Part shown: in pieces, positions 10,712 through 61,699 of the stretch
Layout of the letters: each line of letters begins with the position of its first letter
Numbering within the stretch: position 1 is the stretch's first letter
Made by a program: the position numbers and the translations under genes
Notes under the pieces: generated by a model
The model's input: the letters and a program-made list of their open reading frames with translations, nothing else
Database searches by the model: none
Told to the model about the DNA's origin: nothing
Source: Candidatus Buchananbacteria bacterium RIFCSPHIGHO2_02_FULL_39_17
Lineage (GTDB): Bacteria > Patescibacteriota > Patescibacteriia > Buchananbacterales > UBA6539
NCBI GenBank assembly: GCA_001817425.1
Contig: MHII01000012.1
Location: 77 to 64,076 of the forward strand
Reading direction: 5' to 3'
Length of the DNA: 64,000 nucleotides

Positions 10712-11860
10712 ATGAGAATTGCCATTATTACCCCCACTTTTCCGTCGTATGCCGGCGGCATTGGCAAGGTCGCGGCGTTTAACGCGCGAGAACTGAAAAA
10801 GCTTGGCCATCAGGTCACGGTTTTTACTCCTGACTATGAACCGGTTAAAGAAGAATTTACTGATTTAGAAATTAAGCGCATTAAGCCGCTTTTTAAATAT
10901 GGTAATGCCGCTTTTATTCCGGCTTTGGGTAAAATGCTCAAAGGTTTTGATATTATTCATCTCCATTATCCATTTTTCGGCGCCGCCGAAATTATTTGGC
11001 TCCATAATTCAAAATTCAAAATTCAAAATTCAAAATTGATTCTACATTACCATATGGATGTAGTCGGGCGCGGATGGTTAAAATTAATTTTCAAATTTCA
11101 CAATCAATTTATCTTGCCTAAAATTGTTAAAGCCGCGGATAAAATCATTTTCACTTCATTGGATTATAGTAAAAATTCAAATTTGGCAAAATGGTTGAAA
11201 AATCAGCCGTCAAAATTTGTGGCAATCCCCAACGGCGTTGACAGCCAAAATTTTTTACCTCAACTAAAAAGTCAAACCTTGCTGGAAAAATACCAGATTA
11301 ATCCTAGCGATAAAATTATCCTTTTTGTCGGCGGTTTAGACCAGGCGCATTATTTCAAAGGCATTGAATATTTACTCCAAGCGGTTTCGCGCCTGCGCCA
11401 AACCGCTTATTTTTGGAAATTAATCATTGTCGGCGAAGGTGATTTAAAAAATTATTATTCTGATTACGCCAATCAGTTAGGGCTTGATAATGAAGTAATA
11501 TTTAGTGGTTATGCTCCGGACGAGGATTTACCCAATTATTATAACTTGGCTGATGTTTGCGTTTTGCCCTCCATTGACAAATCTGAAGCTTTTGGCTTAG
11601 CTTTAATTGAGGCGATGGCGTGCGGAAAACCGGTCGTGGCAACAGATTTGGCCGGCGTGCGAAGCGTGGTTGAAGACGGGGTTAACGGGCTTTTGGCCCA
11701 GCCGAAAAATGCCGCTGATTTGGCGGCAAAAATTAATTATTTATTAATTAATCCCGAAATTGCCCAAGAGTTTGGCCACAACGGCCGGAAAAAAGTGGAA
11801 GAAGAGTATGAGTGGGGGAGGATCGGGAGAAAGCTAGATGAATTATATAAGAGTTTATAA
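10712..11860 (+). CDS. Glycosyltransferase family 4
   Basis: C-terminal EAFGLALIEAMACGKPVVATDLAGVRSVVEDGVNGLL (GT4 E-X7-E region). Contains an in-frame (attcaaa)x4 heptamer tract at 11006-11036, encoding NSKFKIQNSK. Confidence 0.8.
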   Translation: MRIAIITPTFPSYAGGIGKVAAFNARELKKLGHQVTVFTPDYEPVKEEFTDLEIKRIKPLFKYGNAAFIPALGKMLKGFDIIHLHYPFFGAAEIIWLHNSKFKIQNSKLILHYHMDVVGRGWLKLIFKFHNQFILPKIVKAADKIIFTSLDYSKNSNLAKWLKNQPSKFVAIPNGVDSQNFLPQLKSQTLLEKYQINPSDKIILFVGGLDQAHYFKGIEYLLQAVSRLRQTAYFWKLIIVGEGDLKNYYSDYANQLGLDNEVIFSGYAPDEDLPNYYNLADVCVLPSIDKSEAFGLALIEAMACGKPVVATDLAGVRSVVEDGVNGLLAQPKNAADLAAKINYLLINPEIAQEFGHNGRKKVEEEYEWGRIGRKLDELYKSL

Positions 11861-11866
11861 AAATTT

Positions 11867-11961
11867 CCCTCTTAAGATAAGAGGGGAGAGGGGAGTTATG
11901 AGTGTAAGTTTTAAAAAATTAATAACCCCATCCACCTCCCCCTTAATTTAAGGGGGGAGAG
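11867..11961. mobile_element. MITE-like derivative (~95 bp) of the DUF559 element, with hairpin termini and no ORF
   Basis: The left end ccctcttaagataagaggggagaggggagttatgag and right end taaccccatccacctcccccttaatttaaggggggagag closely match the two ends of the DUF559 element at 61224-61656. Only ~20 bp lies between them here. Confidence 0.6.
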
Positions 11962-13146
11962 ATGATAGATATGAAATTTTGTCTAATCCACTCACTATAT
12001 TATCCTTATGCCAAAGGCGGCGCTGAAGTGGTGGTTGAAATTATTTTAAATGAACTTTTGGCGCAAGGCCATCAAGTGATTTTAATTACTTTAGGTCGAA
12101 GAAAAGAAATTCAGCGTCAGGGCAATTTGATGATTTATCGGATTAATCCGTTTAATATTTTTTCTTTTTTAGATATTGACCGTCGGCCGATTTGGCTTCG
12201 GTTTATCTGGCATCCAATGGATGTTTTTAATATTTCCAGTTATTTTGCGGTTAAAAAAATTCTAAAACAGGAAACGCCAAAAGCGGTTTTAACCCATAAT
12301 CTCAAAGGCTTGGGTTACTTAATTCCTAAAGCGATTAGAAGAGTTGGGCTGAAGCAGATTCATACCATTCATGACGTTCAATTGTCTCGGCCGTCCGGCT
12401 TGATTTATTTTGGCCAGGAAAAGCCGTTTTTAATTTTAGATAAAATGTATGAAAAAATCGTTAAGCGGTTATTCGGCAATTCAGATGTGGTCATTTCGCC
12501 TTCGCGCTGGCTGATGGGCTATTATCAGGCGCGCGGGTTTTTTTATGAATCAAAAAAAATAATCTTGCCTAATCCGGTGATTTTTAAAAAAGTGGAAAAA
12601 AGGGATGAGACGATGGAGCAAGGCCAGGGTGGAAAAATTACTTTGCTTTATGTCGGCCAATGGGAGAGGCATAAAGGCATTTTATTTTTAGTTAACGCTT
12701 TAAAAAAGATTAAATTAGAAAATTGGCAGATTTTAATCGTTGGCAACGGCGGTGCCAAACTGAATTTAGAAAAACTGGTTGGCGGCGATTTACGTTTTAA
12801 GCTGGTTGGTTGGGTGGAGCCGGAGAAATTATCTGATTATTTTCGCCAATCCGATCTCACCCTTGTCCCGTCGCTTTGTTATGAAAATTCGCCGCAGGTG
12901 ATTAATGAAAGCTTAGTCGCCAATGTGCCAGTCGTGGCCGCGGATATCGGCGGCGTTTCGGAAATTGTCAAAGACAATTACAATGGATTTACTTTTGCGC
13001 CGGGAAACGAAAAAAACCTCATTGAGGTTTTGGAATATTTTTTGAGCCATCCCCAGTTTATCTCTGACTTAAAGCGAAATTGTTTTGTTTCGGTGCGGGA
13101 TTATTCAGTCGGTCATTATATTAAAAAATTGTTAAATTTGATTTAA
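11962..13146 (+). CDS. Glycosyltransferase family 4
   Basis: ENSPQVINESLVANVPVVAADIGGVSEIVKDNYNGFTF is a GT4 C-terminal motif. The start codon directly abuts the end of the MITE-like element. Confidence 0.75.
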   Translation: MIDMKFCLIHSLYYPYAKGGAEVVVEIILNELLAQGHQVILITLGRRKEIQRQGNLMIYRINPFNIFSFLDIDRRPIWLRFIWHPMDVFNISSYFAVKKILKQETPKAVLTHNLKGLGYLIPKAIRRVGLKQIHTIHDVQLSRPSGLIYFGQEKPFLILDKMYEKIVKRLFGNSDVVISPSRWLMGYYQARGFFYESKKIILPNPVIFKKVEKRDETMEQGQGGKITLLYVGQWERHKGILFLVNALKKIKLENWQILIVGNGGAKLNLEKLVGGDLRFKLVGWVEPEKLSDYFRQSDLTLVPSLCYENSPQVINESLVANVPVVAADIGGVSEIVKDNYNGFTFAPGNEKNLIEVLEYFLSHPQFISDLKRNCFVSVRDYSVGHYIKKLLNLI

Positions 13147-22098: not shown

Positions 22099-22953
22099 AT
22101 GGCCAATCAACGGAAAATCCTTATCCTTGGCGCAAACGGCATGCTGGGCCACGATCTGGCTGAAATTTTTTTTGATCAAAAACCAATTCTTTGGGATATG
22201 CCAAATCTTGATATTACTGATGAATTTGCGGTCAAACAAAAATTAGCTGATTTAATGCCTTCTTTAGTGATTAATGCCGCTGCCTATACTGACGTTGATG
22301 GTGCTCAAAATCAGCCAGATTTGGCGTTTAAGGTCAATGCCGACGCCATTGGCTACTTGGCAGTTGCCTGTCAGCAATTAGGGGCGATTTTGGTGCATTA
22401 CAGCACTGAATACGTTTTTTCCGGTAACAAGGATACTGGTTATCAAGAAGACGACAAAACTGATCCGTTAAATATTTATGGCCAGTCTAAAGCCAAAGGT
22501 GAAGAGATTTTAAAACAAAATTGTGAAATGTTTTATTTAATTCGTTCAAGCTGGCTTTACGGCCGTTCACCCCAAGTCGGCAAGCCGCGCGGCTTGAATT
22601 TCGTCCAAACTATGCTAAAATTGGCAGGTGAGGGTAAAGAGATTAATGTTGTTTCCGACCAGTTTGGCAAGCCGACTTATACTTTAGACTTAGCTAAAAA
22701 AACCCGGGAAATTATTGAAACTCAAAAGCCCTGCGGCATTTATCATGCGGTTAACGAAGGTGTTTGCAGCTGGTATGAATTTGCCAAAAAAATTTTTGAA
22801 ATAAAAAATATTTCCGCAAATTTAAATTCAATTAATTCAGATCAATATCCTTTGCCTACGCCACGGCCAAAATACAGCATTTTAGTTAACACCAAATTAG
22901 AGCCGTTGCGGAAGTGGGACGAGGCGTTGCGAGATTACCTACGGCAAAGTTAA
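22099..22953 (+). CDS. rmlD: dTDP-4-dehydrorhamnose reductase
   Basis: KILILGANGMLGHDL, YGQSKAKGEE, ~284 aa. Confidence 0.85.
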   Translation: MANQRKILILGANGMLGHDLAEIFFDQKPILWDMPNLDITDEFAVKQKLADLMPSLVINAAAYTDVDGAQNQPDLAFKVNADAIGYLAVACQQLGAILVHYSTEYVFSGNKDTGYQEDDKTDPLNIYGQSKAKGEEILKQNCEMFYLIRSSWLYGRSPQVGKPRGLNFVQTMLKLAGEGKEINVVSDQFGKPTYTLDLAKKTREIIETQKPCGIYHAVNEGVCSWYEFAKKIFEIKNISANLNSINSDQYPLPTPRPKYSILVNTKLEPLRKWDEALRDYLRQS

Positions 22954-22956
22954 AAG

Positions 22957-23059
22957 TCAAAAGGCAAAAGTCAAAATTGCAATTCAAAATTCAAAAGTAA
23001 AAAGTAATAATTTTGATTTTTAACTTGAACTTTTAATTTTTAACTTTTAACTTTTGAAT
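22957..23059. repeat. Left arm of the 103-bp inverted repeat enclosing rmlA
   Basis: Its reverse complement matches 23824-23926 at 102 of 103 positions. Built from caaaag/acttttaa units. Confidence 0.85.
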
Positions 23060-23064
23060 TTTTT

Positions 23065-23781
23065 ATGAAAGGCATAATTTTAGCCGGCGGGACCGGTTCG
23101 CGCTTGGATCCGCTGACTCGAGTCACCAATAAACATTTACTACCGATCTACGACCGGCCAATGATTTATTATCCGATTCAGACTTTAGTCAAAGCTGGCA
23201 TCACTGACATTATGATTGTTTCCGGCAAAGGCCATGCCGGGCAGTTTTTGGAATTACTTCAATCTGGTAAAGAATTGGGCGCGAAGTTTTCCTATGGCGT
23301 GCAAGAAGAAGCCGGCGGCATTGCCCAAGCCTTGGCCGTCTGCCAAGATTTTGCTGACAATGATAAAATTGTGGTAATGTTAGGCGATAATATTTTGCAA
23401 AATGATATTTCTAATGCCGTCAAAGATTTTGAAAAACAAGATAAGGGCTCAAAGATATTTTTAAAAGAAGTGGAAAATCCCAAATCTTTTGGCGTGGCGC
23501 AAATTGCCGGCGACAAAATCATTGAAATTGAAGAAAAACCAAAAAACCCCAAAACCAATTTAGCGGTTATTGGGGTTTATCTGTATGATAGTCAGGTTTG
23601 GCAAGTGATTAAAACTTTGAAACCTTCAGGGCGAGGCGAATTGGAAATCACTGATGTTAATAATTTTTACGTTAAAAAAGGGGAAATGACTTTTGAAATT
23701 TTGCGCGGCTGGTGGGGAGACGGAGGTGAGTCATTTGATAGTTTATTGGCGGCCGGGAATTTGGTTGCCAAGAAAAAATAA
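23065..23781 (+). CDS. rmlA: Glucose-1-phosphate thymidylyltransferase-like sugar-phosphate nucleotidyltransferase (short form)
   Basis: MKGIILAGGTGSRLDPLTRVTNKHLLPIYDRPMIYYPI is the nucleotidyltransferase signature. Adjacent to rmlB and rmlD. Confidence 0.7.
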   Translation: MKGIILAGGTGSRLDPLTRVTNKHLLPIYDRPMIYYPIQTLVKAGITDIMIVSGKGHAGQFLELLQSGKELGAKFSYGVQEEAGGIAQALAVCQDFADNDKIVVMLGDNILQNDISNAVKDFEKQDKGSKIFLKEVENPKSFGVAQIAGDKIIEIEEKPKNPKTNLAVIGVYLYDSQVWQVIKTLKPSGRGELEITDVNNFYVKKGEMTFEILRGWWGDGGESFDSLLAAGNLVAKKK

Positions 23782-23823
23782 TTTTTCAAGCACCAAATCC
23801 AAAATCACAAGCTCCAAATAATA

Positions 23824-23926
23824 ATTCAAAAGTTAAAAGTTAAAAATTAAAAGTTCAAGTTAAAAGTCAAAATTATTACTTTTTACTTTTGAATTTTGAA
23901 TTGCAATTTTGACTTTTGCCTTTTGA
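23824..23926. repeat. Right arm of the 103-bp inverted repeat enclosing rmlA
   Basis: Reverse complement of 22957-23059 with one mismatch. Confidence 0.85.
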
Positions 23927-23983
23927 ATTTTAACTTTGATGCTTATTTATAATTTGGAATTTATTTGAGATTTAATATTTCAA

Positions 23984-30502: not shown

Positions 30503-31477
30503 TTGGCTCGCAATGACAAAATAAAAACTATGTCCAAATTCATCAAGCCATTTTCTCAACTTTCCAAAACCGACGTGAAAATTGCTGGCGGCAAGGGTGC
30601 GTCTTTAGGTGAGATGACGCATGCCAAAATTCCAGTGCCGCCAGGCTTTGTTGTATTAGCCCAAGCTTTTGACCGGTTTTTAGCGGAAACTGATTTAGTC
30701 GTGGAAGTGGAAGCGAATTTAAACAAAATAAATTATAAAGACACAAATTCCATTAACAAAGCATCAAATGTGATTCGCGATTTGATTCATGACTCAAAAA
30801 TGCCGCTTGATTTGCAAAAAGAAATTTTAGCGGAATTTAAAAAATTAAAAGCGAAGCTTGTCGCCGTTCGATCATCAGCCACAGCCGAAGATTCCTCTCA
30901 AGCGAGCTGGGCCGGAGAATTAGAAACATTTTTAAACACGACTGAGAAAAATTTATTAGGCAAAGTCAAACAATGCTGGTCATCGCTTTTTACACCTCGC
31001 GCAATTTTTTATCGCTTTGAAAAAGGATTGCGTAATTCTAAAGTATCTGTGGCGGCGGTGGTCCAGCAAATGGTTGATTCAGAAATTTCCGGCATTGCTT
31101 TTACCGTTCATCCCGTGACTAAAACTAAAAGTCAAATGATCATTGAAGCTGGCTGGGGTTTGGGTGAAGCCATAGTCTCTGGCCAGATTACGCCAGACAG
31201 TTATGTCATTGATAAAACAGATTTTTCCATTTTGGATATTAATGTATCGCAGCAAACAAAAATGTTAGTCAAAAAAGGCTCGGCTGGCGGCAATGTCTGG
31301 AAGCCAGTGCCAAAAAATCAGCAAGAAGCTCAAGTGTTATCTGGCAAACAAATAATCGAGCTAGCCAAAATTTGTGCTGGCATTGAAAAACATTACAAAA
31401 AACCGCAAGACATTGAGTGGGCATTTGCTAAAGGTAAATTTTATATTACCCAAAGCAGGCCGATTACGACGCTTTAA
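30503..31477 (+). CDS. PEP synthase / pyruvate phosphate dikinase N-terminal PEP/pyruvate-binding (ATP-grasp) domain protein
   Basis: IAGGKGASLGEM...PVPPGFVV and VAVRSSATAEDSSQASWAGELETFLN match the PPDK_N signature. It is a stand-alone domain here. Confidence 0.7.
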   Translation: MARNDKIKTMSKFIKPFSQLSKTDVKIAGGKGASLGEMTHAKIPVPPGFVVLAQAFDRFLAETDLVVEVEANLNKINYKDTNSINKASNVIRDLIHDSKMPLDLQKEILAEFKKLKAKLVAVRSSATAEDSSQASWAGELETFLNTTEKNLLGKVKQCWSSLFTPRAIFYRFEKGLRNSKVSVAAVVQQMVDSEISGIAFTVHPVTKTKSQMIIEAGWGLGEAIVSGQITPDSYVIDKTDFSILDINVSQQTKMLVKKGSAGGNVWKPVPKNQQEAQVLSGKQIIELAKICAGIEKHYKKPQDIEWAFAKGKFYITQSRPITTL

Positions 31478-31497
31478 TGAAAAATAACTTCCTCTTT

Positions 31498-31545
31498 CTC
31501 CCCCTTAAATTAAGGGGGGGGGTGAGAGGGGGTTAAATTTCAAAA
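31498..31545. repeat. Hairpin element related to the DUF559-element termini
   Basis: ctcccccttaaattaaggggggg followed by gagagggggtta, cf. 11936-11959 and 61634-61656. Confidence 0.5.
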
Positions 31546-31805
31546 TGATAATTATGCAAAAAATTTGGCGGAAAAATTTTGAAATTCAGCGGAGTCATCC
31601 GCTTTTAGCTTATGATGCGCTGAAAGTGTGTTATGAATATGGCACGATTCTGCTTGGCCGCAAATTTTTTACTGAAATATTTTGGGTTAACGAAGGAGTT
31701 AATAATACCGGTACTTATTTTATTAAGAGCGAATTAAGAAAAGCTGCGGAATTGACTTTAAAAAAAATTATCCATCATTCGGGGTTGGTGAAAAAAATAA
31801 ATTAA
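31545..31805 (+). CDS. Hypothetical small protein
   Basis: ORF only, 86 aa. Confidence 0.2.
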   Translation: MIIMQKIWRKNFEIQRSHPLLAYDALKVCYEYGTILLGRKFFTEIFWVNEGVNNTGTYFIKSELRKAAELTLKKIIHHSGLVKKIN

Positions 31806-58221: not shown

Positions 58222-60951
58222 ATGAAGTTATTTAATCTTATCCTCGGTAACCTTAATGAAAAATTAATCAAAGATTTAAAACAGCAAGTTTTGGTGATTA
58301 ATCATTTAGAAGAAAAAATTTCCGTTTTGACTGACGAACAATTAAAAGAAAAAACAACGTTTTTTAAGGAAGAATTAACCAAAGGAAAAACTTCAGATGA
58401 TATTTTGTCCGAGGCTTTCGCTTGCGTCCGGGAAGCTGCCAAGCGCACCATTGGTCAGCGCCATTATGATGTCCAGTTCTTGACGGGCATTGTTTTAAAC
58501 CAGGGCCAAATTGCCGAGCAAAAAACCGGCGAAGGAAAAACTCTTTCCGCCACTTTGCCGCTTTATTTAAACGCTTTGATTGGCAAAGGCTGCCATCTAG
58601 TGACGGTCAATGATTATCTCTCGCGGCGTGACTGCGGCTGGATGGGACCGGTTTATCATTTTTTAGGCTTAAGTTGTGGCGTCATTATCCATGAAACCGC
58701 TTTTTTATACGATCCAAGTTATAGTGACGAAAATGCCACGGACGAGAGGTTAATCCATTTACGGCCGGTTTCTAGAAAAGAGGCTTATCTGGCGGATATC
58801 ACTTATGGCACGAATAATGAATTTGGTTTTGATTATTTGCGCGATAATATGGTTTCAAGCTTAGACCAAATGGTTCAGCGCGATCTGCATTACGCTATTG
58901 TTGATGAGGTTGACAGTATTTTGATTGATGAGGCGAGAACGCCTTTAATCATTTCGGCACCGGATATGGATTCCACTGATAAATATTATCAGTTTGCCAA
59001 ATTAGTGACGCAATTAAAAGAAAATGAAGATTATAATATTGATGAAAAAATGCAGGCCGCGACTTTGACCGAAAACGGCATTACCAAAATGGAGAAATGG
59101 TTAGGGGTGGAAAATATTTATACGGAAGGCGGCATTAGCGAAGTTCATCATCTTGAGCAGGCTTTACGCGCCCAGACTTTATTTAAGCGCGATCGTGATT
59201 ATGTGGTGAAAGACGGTGAAGTGATTATTGTTGACGAATTTACGGGGCGGATGATGTTTGGCCGGCGCTACAGCGAAGGTCTGCATCAGGCAATTGAAGC
59301 CAAAGAGGGCGTCCAGATTCAGCGTGAAAGCCGGACTTTGGCGACGATTACTTTTCAAAATTATTTTCGTTTGTATCACAAATTAGCCGGTATGACCGGT
59401 ACGGCCGCCACCGAGTCCGAAGAATTTTCCAAAATTTATAATTTAGACGTTACCGTTATCCCCACCCATCAGCCAATGGTCAGGCAGGATTTGGCGGACC
59501 GGATTTATAAAAATCAAGAAGCAAAGTTTCAGGCGGTTGTCCAAGAAGTGAAAGAGCGTCACCAAAAAGGCCAGCCAGTTTTAGTTGGCACAATTTCTAT
59601 TGAAAAAAATGAATTGATCGCGGCTATGCTTAAGCGTGAAGGCGTGGAACTCCAAGTTTTAAACGCGAAATTTCACGAAAAAGAGGCGCAAATTATTGCT
59701 CAAGCCGGCCAGTTTGGCGCGGTGACGGTGGCCACGAATATGGCCGGACGCGGGGTGGACATTAAATTGGGCGGTGACCCATTTGACGAAAAAGAAGAAA
59801 AAAAAGTTAAAGAGGCTGGCGGTCTTTTGATTTTAGGCACCGAGCGTCATGAATCGCGCCGGATTGACAATCAATTGCGCGGTCGAGCCGGACGGCAAGG
59901 GGACCCTGGGGCGTCGCAATTTTATGTTTCTTTAGATGATGATTTAATGCGGATTTTTGGTGGTAGCCGGATTAAAGGAGTGATGGAACGTTTAGGCGTG
60001 CCGGATGAGATGCCGATTGAAAATAAAATGGTTTCGCATTCACTTGAGTCAGCCCAAAAAAAAGTGGAAGGTTTTCATTTTGATACCCGTAAGCATTTAG
60101 TGGAGTATGATGACGTTTTAAACAAACACCGGGAAACGATTTATAAAAAACGACGGGATATTTTAACCGGCGAAAATCTTAAAGAACAAATTTTAAAACT
60201 AATCAGAGAAGAGATTTCCGAAGTGGTTAATTTCCACACTCAAGCTGGCGACGAGACGACTTGGAATATGGAGGAGATTTACGAAGTGACCAATACGATT
60301 TTTCCGGTTACTTCCGGCGTGCGGCTGAAATTAAATGAAATTCAAGAAGAGGCGGGAAATTTATTGGCCGATCAAAGCAGCCGCGGCCGATTGATTAATT
60401 ATTTATATAAATTAGCCGTTGTCAGTTATAATTATTTAGAAGAACAAATTAGTCAGGTCTTAGGCCAAAAAGAAGCGATGAGAAATGTAGAAAAGGGGAT
60501 GATGATTCGCAGTATTGATATGTTGTGGATTGAACATTTGGAAGCCCTAGATCATCTGCGCGCCGGTATTGGTTTGCGCGGTTATGGCCAAAGGGATCCT
60601 TTAATTGAATACAAAAAAGAAGCCTTTGGGCTTTTTAAGGAATTATTAGTGATGATTAGAAAACAGGTGGTTTATAGTATTTATAAAGTCGGCGTGGCGA
60701 CTAAAGTCGCGCCGTCAATGATGGAGCAGATTCCGGGCTTAACTTTTTCCGCGCCGGCGAAAACCATGGAAAAAGATTCTTCACCAATTTTATCGGCGGC
60801 TAATGGCAAAACGCCGCAACAACGCGAAGTTGAGTCGCGCCAAGCCGGGCTGATTAATGACCAGTCCCATTACCACGGCCAAAAAGTCGGCCGCAATGAC
60901 CCCTGCCCGTGCGGTTCGGGACGTAAATTTAAGAAATGCCATGGAAAATAA
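58222..60951 (+). CDS. secA: Preprotein translocase ATPase SecA
   Basis: DEAD motor with GEGKTL Walker A and VDEVDSILIDEARTPLIIS, and a C-terminal zinc finger CPCGSGRKFKKCHG. Confidence 0.95.
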   Translation: MKLFNLILGNLNEKLIKDLKQQVLVINHLEEKISVLTDEQLKEKTTFFKEELTKGKTSDDILSEAFACVREAAKRTIGQRHYDVQFLTGIVLNQGQIAEQKTGEGKTLSATLPLYLNALIGKGCHLVTVNDYLSRRDCGWMGPVYHFLGLSCGVIIHETAFLYDPSYSDENATDERLIHLRPVSRKEAYLADITYGTNNEFGFDYLRDNMVSSLDQMVQRDLHYAIVDEVDSILIDEARTPLIISAPDMDSTDKYYQFAKLVTQLKENEDYNIDEKMQAATLTENGITKMEKWLGVENIYTEGGISEVHHLEQALRAQTLFKRDRDYVVKDGEVIIVDEFTGRMMFGRRYSEGLHQAIEAKEGVQIQRESRTLATITFQNYFRLYHKLAGMTGTAATESEEFSKIYNLDVTVIPTHQPMVRQDLADRIYKNQEAKFQAVVQEVKERHQKGQPVLVGTISIEKNELIAAMLKREGVELQVLNAKFHEKEAQIIAQAGQFGAVTVATNMAGRGVDIKLGGDPFDEKEEKKVKEAGGLLILGTERHESRRIDNQLRGRAGRQGDPGASQFYVSLDDDLMRIFGGSRIKGVMERLGVPDEMPIENKMVSHSLESAQKKVEGFHFDTRKHLVEYDDVLNKHRETIYKKRRDILTGENLKEQILKLIREEISEVVNFHTQAGDETTWNMEEIYEVTNTIFPVTSGVRLKLNEIQEEAGNLLADQSSRGRLINYLYKLAVVSYNYLEEQISQVLGQKEAMRNVEKGMMIRSIDMLWIEHLEALDHLRAGIGLRGYGQRDPLIEYKKEAFGLFKELLVMIRKQVVYSIYKVGVATKVAPSMMEQIPGLTFSAPAKTMEKDSSPILSAANGKTPQQREVESRQAGLINDQSHYHGQKVGRNDPCPCGSGRKFKKCHGK

Positions 60952-61249
60952 TATGGAAAATTTAGAAGAGAGAATCCAAAAAATTGAAGAGCGCAATCTG
61001 CGGGTGGAAGCCGATAAAACTTGGGAACAGAGCTGGACACGACGCGCTTTATTAGCGATTTTTAGCTATGTTGCCGTTGGGGCATATCTTCAGGCGATTC
61101 AAATCCCGCGGCCGTGGATTAACGCCATTGTGCCAGCCGCGGCGTTTATGATTCAGACCTTAACCTTGCCGTTTTTCAAAAAACTTTGGCTAAAATTTTT
61201 TTCTAAAAATGATTTTTTAAATCCCCCTCTTAAAGGTAAGAGGGGTTAG
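60941..61249 (+). CDS. Small hypothetical membrane protein
   Basis: ~100 aa with 2 TM helices. Overlaps the secA stop. Its last codons run into the left hairpin of the DUF559 element. Confidence 0.3.
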   Translation: MENNMENLEERIQKIEERNLRVEADKTWEQSWTRRALLAIFSYVAVGAYLQAIQIPRPWINAIVPAAAFMIQTLTLPFFKKLWLKFFSKNDFLNPPLKGKRG

Positions 61250-61656
61250 GGGAGTTATGAAGTATAATTATCATTATAATAACCATAAATTAAAAACTTT
61301 AAGACGAAACTTACGACAGAACCAAACTGATGCCAAAAAATTAATTTGGTCAAAACTTAGGAATAAACAATTAAATGATTTGAAATTTTATAGACAATAC
61401 AGTATTGGCTCGTATATTTTAGATTTTTATTGTCCTAAAAAGAGATTAGCGATAGAGATTGACGGCGGACAGCATAACGAAACAATTAATCTAAAAAAAG
61501 ATAATGTGCGATCAGAATATTTAAAACATCAGGACGTTAAGGTTATAAGATTTTAGAATAATGATATTATAAATAATTTAGAAGGAGTATTTGAAAAAAT
61601 TAAAGAAGCAGTATCGTTAATAACCCCCTCCATCTCCCCCTTATATTAAGGGGGAG
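61224..61656 (+). mobile_element. Mini mobile element with hairpin termini carrying a DUF559 (Vsr-like endonuclease-fold) gene
   Basis: The left end cccctcttaaaggtaagaggggttaggggagttATG and right end taaccccctccatctcccccttatattaagggggag are palindromic. The same two ends occur back to back at 11867-11961 without the ORF. Confidence 0.6.
61257..61649 (+). pseudogene. DUF559 endonuclease-domain gene interrupted by an in-frame TAG at the conserved RFW motif
   Basis: YRQYSIGSYILDFYCPKKRLAIEIDGGQHNE...DVKVIRF*NNDIINNLEGVFEKIKEAVSL. DUF559 proteins normally read RFWN followed by a tail, so TAG replaces the Trp codon. Confidence 0.55.
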
Positions 61657-61699
61657 AATAATAATAGGCGGCAAAATATTTTAATTTTGAAATTTAATA

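What the first reader, a model, noticed from the sequence alone, without database searches (positions are those of the whole stretch)
11867..11961. 95-bp MITE-like element made of the two DUF559-element termini, abutting the GT4 start codon
Both termini of the DUF559 element sit back to back here: ccctcttaagataagaggggagaggggagttatgag, a ~20-bp remnant, then taaccccatccacctcccccttaatttaaggggggagag. It ends immediately before the ATG at 11962 of a glycosyltransferase, so the element now supplies that gene's immediate upstream context, with possible promoter or terminator effects. It is direct evidence for internal deletion of the DUF559 element.
Basis: seen in the sequence. Interest (0 to 1): 0.6.

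Follow-up and report, generated by a model that had tools for sequence, protein, structure and literature searches.

The report
ORF-less hairpin doublet of DUF559 element
The 95 bp between two glycosyltransferase genes is a gene-less copy of the two hairpin ends that normally flank a small DUF559 nuclease gene, and it belongs to a repeat family found in many bacterial phyla that I could not find described in the literature searched.

Summary
Window 11867-11961 matches both ends of the DUF559 gene region at 61225-61657: 32/36 positions on the left, 37/43 on the right, z about 11 each. Each end is a G+C hairpin plus a conserved arm (GGGGAGTTA / TAACCCCNTCC), and the two ends are imperfect inverted repeats.

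The architecture is widespread. A hairpin-only scan of 185,579 species genomes hit at least 100 loci in many phyla, and the un-queried arm recurred. I found 35 short doublets of the same build. In 69 DUF559 loci chosen by protein alone, 55% have strong hairpins on both sides, against 12% of control windows with one.

Relatives show an insertion. The closest relative without the element has 4 nt between the two GT4 genes; others carry a VanZ gene there. The conserved GT4 start is ATG 11971, not 11962.

"MITE-like" fits the anatomy but not the definition: there is no target duplication, and DUF559 is not a known transposase. "Direct evidence of internal deletion" is overstated; only a weak 3' remnant supports it (p about 0.007). 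No promoter or + strand terminator consensus was found.

The closest analogue is a REPIN/RAYT system with a Vsr-fold nuclease in the RAYT position. The mechanism is inferred.

The parts
11867..11885 (+). Left hairpin CCCTCTTA-AGA-TAAGAGGG. In most strains 11866 is C, which extends the stem.
   Evidence: Homologous to 61225-61244. Across 23 doublets this hairpin is 95% paired, and 5 of 10 pairs show compensatory changes.
11890..11898 (+). Left arm GGGGAGTTA. It overlaps the former DUF559 start ATG at 11898-11900.
   Evidence: The same arm precedes the ATG of many DUF559 genes and occurs in all 35 doublets.
11899..11922 (+). 24-nt A+T-rich spacer between the arms. It may be a remnant of the DUF559 3' coding end.
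   Evidence: the 3' part matches the last 45 nt of the DUF559 ORF with p about 0.007; the 5' part is not significant.
11923..11933 (+). Right arm TAACCCCATCC, roughly complementary to the left arm.
   Evidence: An arm of the form TAAC[CT][CT]C... preceded 70 of the hairpin hits, although it was not part of the search pattern.
11936..11959 (+). Right hairpin CTCCCCCTTAA-TT-TAAGGGGGGAG. Its 3' arm is a G-run containing GGAG, 11 nt before ATG 11971.
11962..11970 (+). Tail ATGATAGAT. It is absent from relatives and resembles the ATAATAATA that follows the right hairpin of the full-length copy and of L047. It contains the in-frame upstream ATG 11962.
11898..11951 (+). 17-codon mini-ORF MSVSFKKLITPSTSPLI*. 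It joins the DUF559 start to the DUF559 C-terminal tail and stop, in frame.
   Evidence: Compare the DUF559 C-terminus ...LITPSISPLY*.
10712..11860 (+). Upstream GT4 glycosyltransferase. Its C-terminus ...LYKSL* is the same as in relatives.
11971..13146 (+). Downstream GT4 glycosyltransferase, with its conserved start MKFCLIHSLY.
   Evidence: NCBI calls the 391-aa form (L010).
61225..61657 (+). Gene-bearing relative of the element: left hairpin 61225-61244, arm 61249-61257, DUF559 pseudogene 61257-61649, right arm 61621-61631, right hairpin 61633-61657.
31485..31535 (+). Solo unit of the same family with the arms on the outside: TAACTTCCTC-hairpin-GAGGGGGTTA, one long palindrome.
   Evidence: The 81-nt stretch 31470-31550 that contains it folds at -36.7 kcal/mol, z -6.0.

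Best explanation
Window 11867-11961, possibly extending to 11970, is the gene-less "doublet" form of a hairpin-repeat module that typically flanks DUF559 (Vsr-fold, PD-(D/E)XK) nuclease genes.

A unit is a 9-10 bp G+C hairpin plus a conserved arm. Two units face each other: hairpin-GGGGAGTTA ... TAACCCCNTCC-hairpin. The gene, when present, sits between the arms.

Shown:
- The doublet is homologous to both ends of the DUF559 pseudogene unit 49 kb away.
- The same architecture recurs in many phyla.
- Doublets are discrete repeated units with sharp ends.
- The doublet occupies a junction that in relatives is either 4 nt long or holds a VanZ gene.

Inferred:
- The module is a selfish, nuclease-associated repeat that spreads at the DNA level.
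- The most likely route is that the DUF559 nuclease cuts or nicks the palindromic arm junction, and repair then copies from another copy, using the roughly 35-bp hairpin-plus-arm ends as portable homology. This is homing-like.
- Gene-less doublets are either decay products or the substrate.
- This copy is probably immobile here, because the only DUF559 gene in the window is dead.
- Its present effect is passive. It separates two formerly abutting or overlapping cistrons by 110 nt. It places two stable stem-loops in the intercistronic RNA. It donates an in-frame ATG (11962) and a GGAG-containing G-run, held in the right stem, 11 nt before the real start at 11971.
For: 1. Homology to both termini: 32/36 and 37/43 positions, z about 11. 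Imperfect inverted repeats at the ends of both the doublet and the full unit, z about 5.
2. The pattern CTCCCCCTTANNTTAAGGGGG has 19 specified bases, so by my arithmetic about 4 chance hits are expected in 596 Gb. It hit at least 100 stretches in candidate phyla radiation bacteria, Nitrospirota, Delta- and Gammaproteobacteria and Dehalococcoidia. 70 of the hits carry the un-queried arm.
3. 35 doublets with spacers of 0-53 nt share the identical architecture.
4. Two L033 copies share one block whose homology begins and ends at the outer hairpin edges.
5. In 69 DUF559 loci selected by protein similarity only:
   - 67% have a strong hairpin upstream, 74% have one at the stop, and 55% have both. 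Among control windows, 12% have one. P is at most 6e-16.
   - 37 of 70 have a significant upstream/downstream inverted repeat.
   - Protein similarity correlates with flank similarity: Mantel rho 0.38 upstream and 0.35 downstream, p at most 0.001.
6. The left hairpin covaries: 22 double-sided changes against 7.1 +/- 2.4 in shuffles, with few G-U pairs. I read this as a palindrome acting at the DNA level.
7. Relatives:
   - L195 (77% identical GT4) has GT1 stop-AAAA-ATG GT2.
   - P0002, P0003 and P0017 (all >=70% identical) have an overlapping VanZ gene between the two GT4 genes; in P0015 (69%) VanZ is separated from GT2 by two minus-strand genes.
8. The DUF559 copy is decaying. All strains have TAG at the W100 codon, and some also have a 1-nt deletion.
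9. Vsr-fold nucleases are already known as homing endonucleases (PMC2677866, PMC3239194).
Against: - No nuclease activity, target or mobility has been shown for any DUF559 protein. The closest solved structure, 3HRL, is an uncharacterised structural-genomics entry.
- No target-site duplication, and no occupied/empty polymorphism among close strains.
- Units flank DUF559 genes in several arrangements: arms inside, arms outside, direct repeats, and a whole doublet beside the gene. This does not fit a single fixed insertion point.
- Most units in the genome scan are solo, with no DUF559 gene nearby: only 6 of 113 hits had a DUF559 match within 120 nt by the automated count, or about 7 counting near-misses.
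- The Mantel correlation could reflect host relatedness rather than co-mobility.
- Shine-Dalgarno-like motifs precede only 7 of 45 long ORFs in the window by a crude first-ATG count, so the "donated ribosome-binding site" may be irrelevant.
Confidence: 0.62

Rival explanations
1. The reverse direction. Doublets, and solo hairpin units, are the primary repeat: a REP/REPIN-like population maintained by some other means. This copy never held a gene. DUF559 genes are secondary invaders or residents that settle inside or beside such repeats.
For: - The commonest spacer length is 11 nt (7 of 35), and spacers of 0-2 nt exist. None of these can hold gene remnants.
- Most units are solo and have no DUF559 gene nearby.
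- DUF559 genes also lie next to complete doublets rather than inside them, as in L117, L120, L123 and L131.
- The 5' part of the window spacer shows no similarity to the gene.
Against: - The window spacer's 3' part does resemble the DUF559 3' coding end (p about 0.007).
- The mini-ORF keeps the DUF559 start and stop in frame.
- The neighbouring full copy is visibly decaying, which is the expected route to a gene-less remnant.
Confidence: 0.3
2. A host regulatory element. The two stem-loops are an intercistronic RNA structure selected for its effect on the glycosyltransferase operon, as an mRNA stabiliser, an attenuator, a terminator without a U tract, or a translational gate. Any resemblance to DUF559 flanks would be incidental to that role.
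For: - The hairpins are stable and fixed in all strains sampled.
- The G-run with GGAG lies 11 nt before ATG 11971 and is locked in the right stem. The 17-codon ORF ends in that hairpin's loop, so translating it would open the stem.
- From my own knowledge, REP sequences in E. coli operons stabilise upstream mRNA.
Against: - No Rfam family reaches its threshold.
- No + strand terminator or promoter consensus.
- Orthologous operons in relatives lack the element entirely and use 4-nt or overlapping junctions.
- The same sequence occurs at unrelated loci and in unrelated phyla.
- Compensatory changes are almost all C-G to U-A with few G-U pairs, which does not point to selection on one RNA strand.
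Confidence: 0.06
3. Chance resemblance between unrelated G+C hairpins in an A+T-rich genome.
For: Short C-run/G-run hairpins with TTA/TAA loops are compositionally simple.
Against: - z about 11 for each terminus against dinucleotide shuffles.
- The non-palindromic arms also match: GGGGAGTTATGA and TTAATAACCCC each occur only at these two places in 64 kb, with at most one mismatch allowed.
- The un-queried arm recurs in 70 hits across phyla.
Confidence: 0.01

Closest known systems
REPIN / REP elements with their RAYT gene (Bertels and Rainey 2011; PMC3116915, PMC3337134)
   Same: - Two short hairpin-forming units in inverted orientation, separated by a short spacer.
- Solo units, doublets and clusters coexist.
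- A small nuclease-type gene sits flanked by its own repeat units.
- Doublets are multicopy within some genomes.
   Different: - The flanked gene is DUF559 (PF04480, Vsr-fold PD-(D/E)XK), not an IS200/IS605-type tyrosine (HUH) transposase.
- There is no GTAG/CGTC head; the conserved arm is GGGGAGTTA/TAACCCCCTC.
- A PD-(D/E)XK nuclease cannot by itself rejoin DNA, so the copying mechanism cannot be the RAYT one.
- REPIN-RAYT systems are described as mostly vertically inherited (abstract of 10.1101/2022.05.22.493013). This hairpin recurs almost unchanged across distant phyla.
Bacterial MITEs, for example Correia elements of Neisseria (Correia comparison from my own knowledge)
   Same: - About 100 bp, with terminal inverted repeats and no gene.
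- Shares termini with a longer gene-bearing unit.
- Sits immediately upstream of a gene, where it can alter the 5' context.
   Different: - No target-site duplication was seen.
- The longer unit does not encode a recognised transposase.
- No promoter-like site was found in the element.
Free-standing Vsr-like (EDxHD) homing endonuclease genes, such as I-Bth0305I and the "fractured gene" endonucleases (PMC3239194, PMC2677866)
   Same: - A small Vsr-fold nuclease gene behaving as a selfish insert.
- A cycle of invasion, decay and loss would explain a pseudogene copy and a gene-less remnant in one genome.
   Different: - Those endonucleases sit in introns, or between intein halves, of specific host genes and target that gene.
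- Here the gene sits in a portable hairpin cassette found in intergenic DNA at many unrelated sites.
- No cleavage data exist for DUF559.
E. coli K-12 ycjD (DUF559)
   Same: - The window protein matches the YcjD-type NCBIfam model NF007294 (E 1.7e-27).
- ycjD is preceded by a long hairpin that overlaps its start.
- It ends ...SPSP* with the stop in a CCCTCTCCC/GAGCGAGGGGG hairpin-like motif.
- It is followed by a fragment ending GGGTTAGGGGCTGTATGAG, which resembles the window's left arm GGGGTTAGGGGAGTTATGAAG (sequence read).
- It sits where other E. coli lineages carry the eefRABCD operon (PMC12817139). This parallels the missing VanZ gene here.
   Different: - The E. coli hairpins have different sequences.
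- No doublets were sought in E. coli.
- The function of YcjD is unknown.

Membership tests
MITE | Small (under about 500 bp) and without a transposase gene | tested here: met
   95-104 bp. The only ORF is a 17-codon mini-ORF.
MITE | Terminal inverted repeats | tested here: met
   The left end aligned to the reverse complement of the right end gives an imperfect match of about 35 nt, z 5.0.
MITE | Termini shared with a longer, gene-bearing element | tested here: met
   32/36 and 37/43 positions match the ends of 61225-61657.
MITE | Target-site duplication flanking the insert | tested here: not met
   No direct repeat flanks 11867-11961 or 61225-61657, nor the two L033 copies.
MITE | Multiple dispersed copies in the genome | tested here: inconclusive
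   Only 64 kb of this genome was available: one doublet, one full unit and one solo unit. The feature is met in other genomes: L033 has 2 copies, L104 has 2, and the Uhrbacteria genome JACPJN01 has 7 loci.
MITE | The parent element encodes a transposase that mobilises it | tested here: not met
   The parent ORF is DUF559 (PF04480, E 3.8e-34). Its nearest structure is 3HRL, an endonuclease-like protein. There is no transposase domain.
REPIN/RAYT system | Two hairpin-forming REP units in inverted orientation with a short spacer | tested here: met
REPIN/RAYT system | A cognate RAYT (IS200/IS605-like tyrosine transposase) flanked by the units | tested here: not met
   The flanked gene is DUF559 in the window and in the protein-selected loci.
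REPIN/RAYT system | A conserved GTAG/CGTC tetranucleotide at the foot of the hairpin (from my own knowledge of the family) | tested here: not met
   The conserved flank is TAAC.../...GTTA.
Intrinsic terminator | G+C hairpin followed by a T/U run on the transcribed strand | tested here: not met
   No + strand site in the element. Only the left hairpin read on the - strand fits, with tail AAATTTTTAT.
Free-standing homing endonuclease gene | Occupied and empty alleles of one site, with cleavage of the empty allele | not testable with these tools
   All close strains are occupied at both sites. An element-free junction was seen only in a relative with 77% identical GT4.
DUF559 (PF04480), for the ORF at 61257-61649 | Match to the family profile above the curated cut-off | tested here: met
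   117.3 bits against a cut-off of 20.6. The ORF is interrupted by TAG at codon 100.
Known RNA family (Rfam 15) | Score at or above a family's gathering threshold | tested here: not met
   No hits over the whole window. Below threshold there are only generic hairpin matches to microRNA models.

The most novel reading that the evidence does not exclude
DUF559 genes and their hairpin-plus-arm repeats form a pan-bacterial selfish system that I could not find described in the literature searched. In this reading a Vsr-fold nuclease, not a transposase, is the protein partner of REPIN-like doublets. The window's 95-bp element would be one of its non-autonomous members. Because E. coli K-12 ycjD carries related motifs, the system would be directly testable in a model organism.
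Probability: 0.35. Interest if true: 0.8.

Novelty: new variant of a known kind. Interest (0 to 1): 0.55.

Why it matters
DUF559 is one of the commonest uncharacterised small nuclease families. Its genes were flagged statistically as enriched among predicted inversion targets (PMC9881135), without explanation.

A conserved hairpin-plus-arm cassette around these genes, together with free doublets and solo units in many phyla, gives DUF559 a concrete candidate substrate. It also points to a class of short bacterial repeats whose partner protein is a Vsr-fold nuclease.

Two practical consequences follow:
- These cassettes create false N- and C-terminal extensions. Here they account for "MID" on the GT4 protein and "NPPLKGKRG" on the protein upstream of the full copy.
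- They can mislead start-codon calls.

At this particular locus the consequence is modest: an operon junction was pulled apart and given new 5' context.

Tried and rejected
1. **Translational coupling as a general design.** In the window's full copy, an upstream ORF reads through the left hairpin and stops at TAG 7 nt before the DUF559 ATG. Across DUF559 loci, only 15% have a long upstream ORF ending within 50 nt of the start, against 8% of controls. I dropped this as a general mechanism.
2. **Solo units as gene-end terminators or stop-codon donors.** Only 10 of 57 units have a same-strand ORF of at least 80 codons ending in the unit, and 19 of 57 have one on the opposite strand. There is no consistent relation.
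3. **L047 (a Buchananbacteria relative) as proof of deletion.** Its doublet has a 53-nt spacer that looked by eye like a DUF559 3' remnant. The alignment is not significant (z 0.45), and the site is not orthologous to anything in the window.
4. **An empty allele among close strains.** None was found at either site.
5. **Similarity to annotated plasmids and phages.** No match.
6. **Rfam.** Nothing.
7. **Literature.** Searches for DUF559, PF04480, YcjD, MITEs in candidate phyla radiation bacteria, and REPIN plus Vsr returned no description of this cassette.
8. **A donated Shine-Dalgarno sequence as a firm claim.** I weakened this, because only 7 of 45 long ORFs in the window have such a motif by a crude count.

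Full report
**Source and setting**

The window is 99.9% identical to contig MHIB01000037.1 of assembly GCA_001817295.1. Orthologues of its genes are named Candidatus Buchananbacteria, a member of the candidate phyla radiation.

The finding lies in the 101-nt gap between two co-directional family-4 glycosyltransferase genes. These are GT4-1 at 10712-11860 and GT4-2 at 11962/11971-13146.

The sequence is as quoted.

- The left core, 11867-11901, matches 61225-61260 at 32/36 positions.
- The right core, 11919-11961, matches 61617-61658 at 37/43 positions.
- Each match lies about 11 standard deviations above dinucleotide shuffles.
- The non-palindromic arms, GGGGAGTTATGA and TTAATAACCCC, occur only at these two places in 64 kb. 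The match is therefore not just "two G+C hairpins".

The element has five parts:

- a left hairpin at 11867-11885;
- a left arm, GGGGAGTTA, at 11890-11898;
- a 24-nt spacer;
- a right arm, TAACCCCATCC, at 11923-11933;
- a right hairpin at 11936-11959.

The two ends are imperfect inverted repeats (z 5). A 17-codon ORF at 11898-11951 joins the DUF559 start codon to the DUF559 C-terminal tail and its stop in the hairpin loop, in frame.

A third relative lies at 31485-31535. It is a single hairpin with both arms on the outside, forming one long palindrome. The 81-nt stretch containing it folds at -36.7 kcal/mol, z -6.

**The "DUF559 element" is a real and widespread unit**

The ORF at 61257-61649 is a clear DUF559 protein: PF04480, E 3.8e-34, with 3HRL as the nearest structure. 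It carries TAG in place of the conserved Trp codon in every strain recovered, and some strains also have a 1-nt deletion. It is a decaying pseudogene.

I selected 80 DUF559 loci from metagenomes by protein similarity alone; 69 were non-redundant and usable.

- 67% have a strong hairpin within 70 nt upstream.
- 74% have one at the stop codon.
- 55% have both.
- 12% of control windows from the same loci have such a hairpin (P at most 6e-16).
- In 37 of 70 loci, the upstream and downstream flanks share a significant inverted repeat.

The typical layout is hairpin-(TTAG)GGGAGTTA-ATG ... TAACTCCCTCC-hairpin. The stop codon often falls in the arm's TAA or in the hairpin loop.

More distant DUF559 proteins carry different hairpin sequences in the same layout. 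Protein similarity correlates with flank similarity: Mantel rho 0.38 upstream and 0.35 downstream, p at most 0.001.

**Gene-less forms are common**

I scanned one genome per species (185,579 species) for the right hairpin alone, CTCCCCCTTANNTTAAGGGGG. By my arithmetic, about 4 hits would be expected by chance.

- The scan returned at least 100 stretches. They come from candidate phyla radiation lineages, Nitrospirota, Delta- and Gammaproteobacteria, Dehalococcoidia and others.
- 70 hits carry the un-queried arm TAACCCCCTC just upstream.
- The automated count found a DUF559 match within 120 nt of only 6 of 113 hits.

Across all loci I found 35 doublets with the window's architecture. Their spacers run from 0 to 53 nt, with a mode of 11 nt and a cluster at 21-31 nt.

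In L033, two doublets 1.8 kb apart share one block, and their homology starts and stops exactly at the outer hairpin edges. That is the behaviour of a discrete repeated unit.

The left hairpin, which was never part of a search pattern, is 95% paired across 23 doublets. It shows 22 double-sided compensatory changes, against 7.1 +/- 2.4 in shuffles, and very few G-U pairs. I read this as selection on a DNA palindrome rather than on one RNA strand.

**The element is an insertion at this junction**

- All near-identical strains carry the element.
- The closest relative without it is L195, whose GT4-2 is 77% identical. Its junction reads GT4-1 stop-AAAA-ATG AAA TTT TGT.
- More distant relatives (P0002, P0003, P0017) have a VanZ-like gene overlapping both neighbours. 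In P0015, VanZ is separated from GT4-2 by two minus-strand genes.
- More than 60 orthologues begin MK[IF]CLIHSLY. The real start is therefore ATG 11971, which is also NCBI's call.
- ATG 11962 and the "MID" extension lie in DNA unique to this lineage.
- The 9 nt after the right hairpin, ATGATAGAT, resemble the ATAATAATA that follows the right hairpin of the full copy and of a relative's doublet. The element may therefore run to 11970 and directly abut the true start.

**Local effects**

- The consensus scan finds no promoter-like site in the element and no + strand terminator-like site.
- Rfam finds nothing.
- What the sequence does show is that two cistrons, abutting or overlapping in relatives, are now 110 nt apart.
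- Two stable stem-loops sit between them.
- A G-run with GGAG, locked in the right stem, lies 11 nt before ATG 11971.
- The mini-ORF ends in that hairpin's loop.
- Whether any of this matters is inference. Shine-Dalgarno-like motifs are uncommon in this window by a crude count, preceding 7 of 45 long ORFs.

**Direction of derivation**

In favour of deletion:
- The 3' part of the spacer resembles the DUF559 3' coding end (p about 0.007, low-complexity sequence).
- The reading frame is preserved.
- The neighbouring copy is decaying.

Against deletion, or neutral:
- The 5' part of the spacer shows nothing.
- Many doublets elsewhere have spacers too short to hold remnants.
- DUF559 genes also sit beside complete doublets, and between units in direct or arms-outside arrangements.

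I put deletion ahead of "never had a gene", but not by much.

**Mechanism**

A 130-residue PD-(D/E)XK nuclease can cut but cannot rejoin DNA, so classical transposition is unlikely.

The best-supported model is homing-like and has three steps:
1. The nuclease recognises the palindromic arm junction.
2. A break or nick forms.
3. Repair copies from another unit, using the roughly 35-bp ends as portable homology.

Vsr-fold nucleases are established homing endonucleases (PMC2677866, PMC3239194). Every step specific to DUF559 is inferred.

**Comparison with known systems**

The architecture is closest to REPIN/RAYT systems (PMC3116915, PMC3337134). The partner gene, the conserved flank and the phyletic spread all differ, and the RAYT membership features fail. 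MITE membership fails on target-site duplication and on a transposase in the parent element.

I found no description of this cassette in the searchable literature. Two papers touch on it indirectly:
- One lists DUF559 genes as enriched among predicted inversion targets (PMC9881135).
- Another notes that E. coli ycjD (DUF559) sits where other lineages carry the eefRABCD operon (PMC12817139).

Reading the K-12 sequence, ycjD itself is preceded by a long hairpin and ends with its stop in a CCCTCTCCC...GAGGGGG motif. It is followed by a fragment ending GGGTTAGGGGCTGTATGAG, which resembles the window's left arm.

**Verdict**

- Locally this is an ordinary, probably inert, repeat insertion.
- Its interest lies in the family it belongs to.

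Noticed in passing
window 61257-61649: The DUF559 ORF has TAG where the family has a conserved Trp (RF*NND), in every strain recovered. Five of eight strain contigs also carry a 1-nt deletion at about 61458. The window matches the contigs without that deletion, although it is otherwise closest to MHIB01000037.1.
   Followed up: yes
window 60857-61249: The ORF upstream of the full DUF559 unit reads through the left hairpin and stops at the TAG in GGTTAGGGG, 7 nt before the DUF559 ATG. Its last residues, NPPLKGKRG, are therefore encoded by the repeat. Gene callers give it 98 or 117 aa.
   Followed up: partly
window 31485-31535: A solo palindromic unit of the same family lies between two co-directional genes (30503-31477 and 31545-31805). 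It folds markedly better on the + strand (-36.7 versus -26.8 kcal/mol for 31470-31550) because of G-T/G-U pairs.
   Followed up: partly
window 11860-11971, compared with L197, L199, L209: Relatives carry a VanZ-like gene (PF04892, about 125 aa) overlapping both GT4 genes. It is missing here and in L195. This parallels the published observation that E. coli ycjD (DUF559) sits where other lineages have eefRABCD (PMC12817139).
   Followed up: partly
L109 4341-4700: Six or more identical 60-bp tandem copies of arm-plus-hairpin (gcataagtcggacgcatcaTAACCCCCTCTAACTCCCCCTTATCTTAAGGGGGAGGATCT) lie at a contig end. This is either a true tandem amplification or an assembly artefact.
   Followed up: no
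L212 (E. coli K-12 NC_000913.3, 1351280-1351860): ycjD is preceded by a 16-bp-stem hairpin overlapping its GTG start, and its stop lies in a CCCTCTCCC/GAGCGAGGGGG motif. It is followed by a duplicated DUF559 3' fragment ending GGGTTAGGGGCTGTATGAG, which resembles the window's left arm.
   Followed up: partly
window 22945-23063 and 23820-23938: A 119-nt inverted repeat, 97% complementary and made of A+T-rich AAAGTCAAAAG-type motifs, brackets a 238-aa nucleotidyltransferase-like ORF at 23065-23781. Related A+T-rich repeats are scattered through the window (families D1-D11).
   Followed up: no
window 11866 and 11952-11957: The element is polymorphic among strains. T/C at 11866 (C extends the left stem), and G6 versus G5 in the right stem (G5 removes a bulge).
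   Followed up: yes
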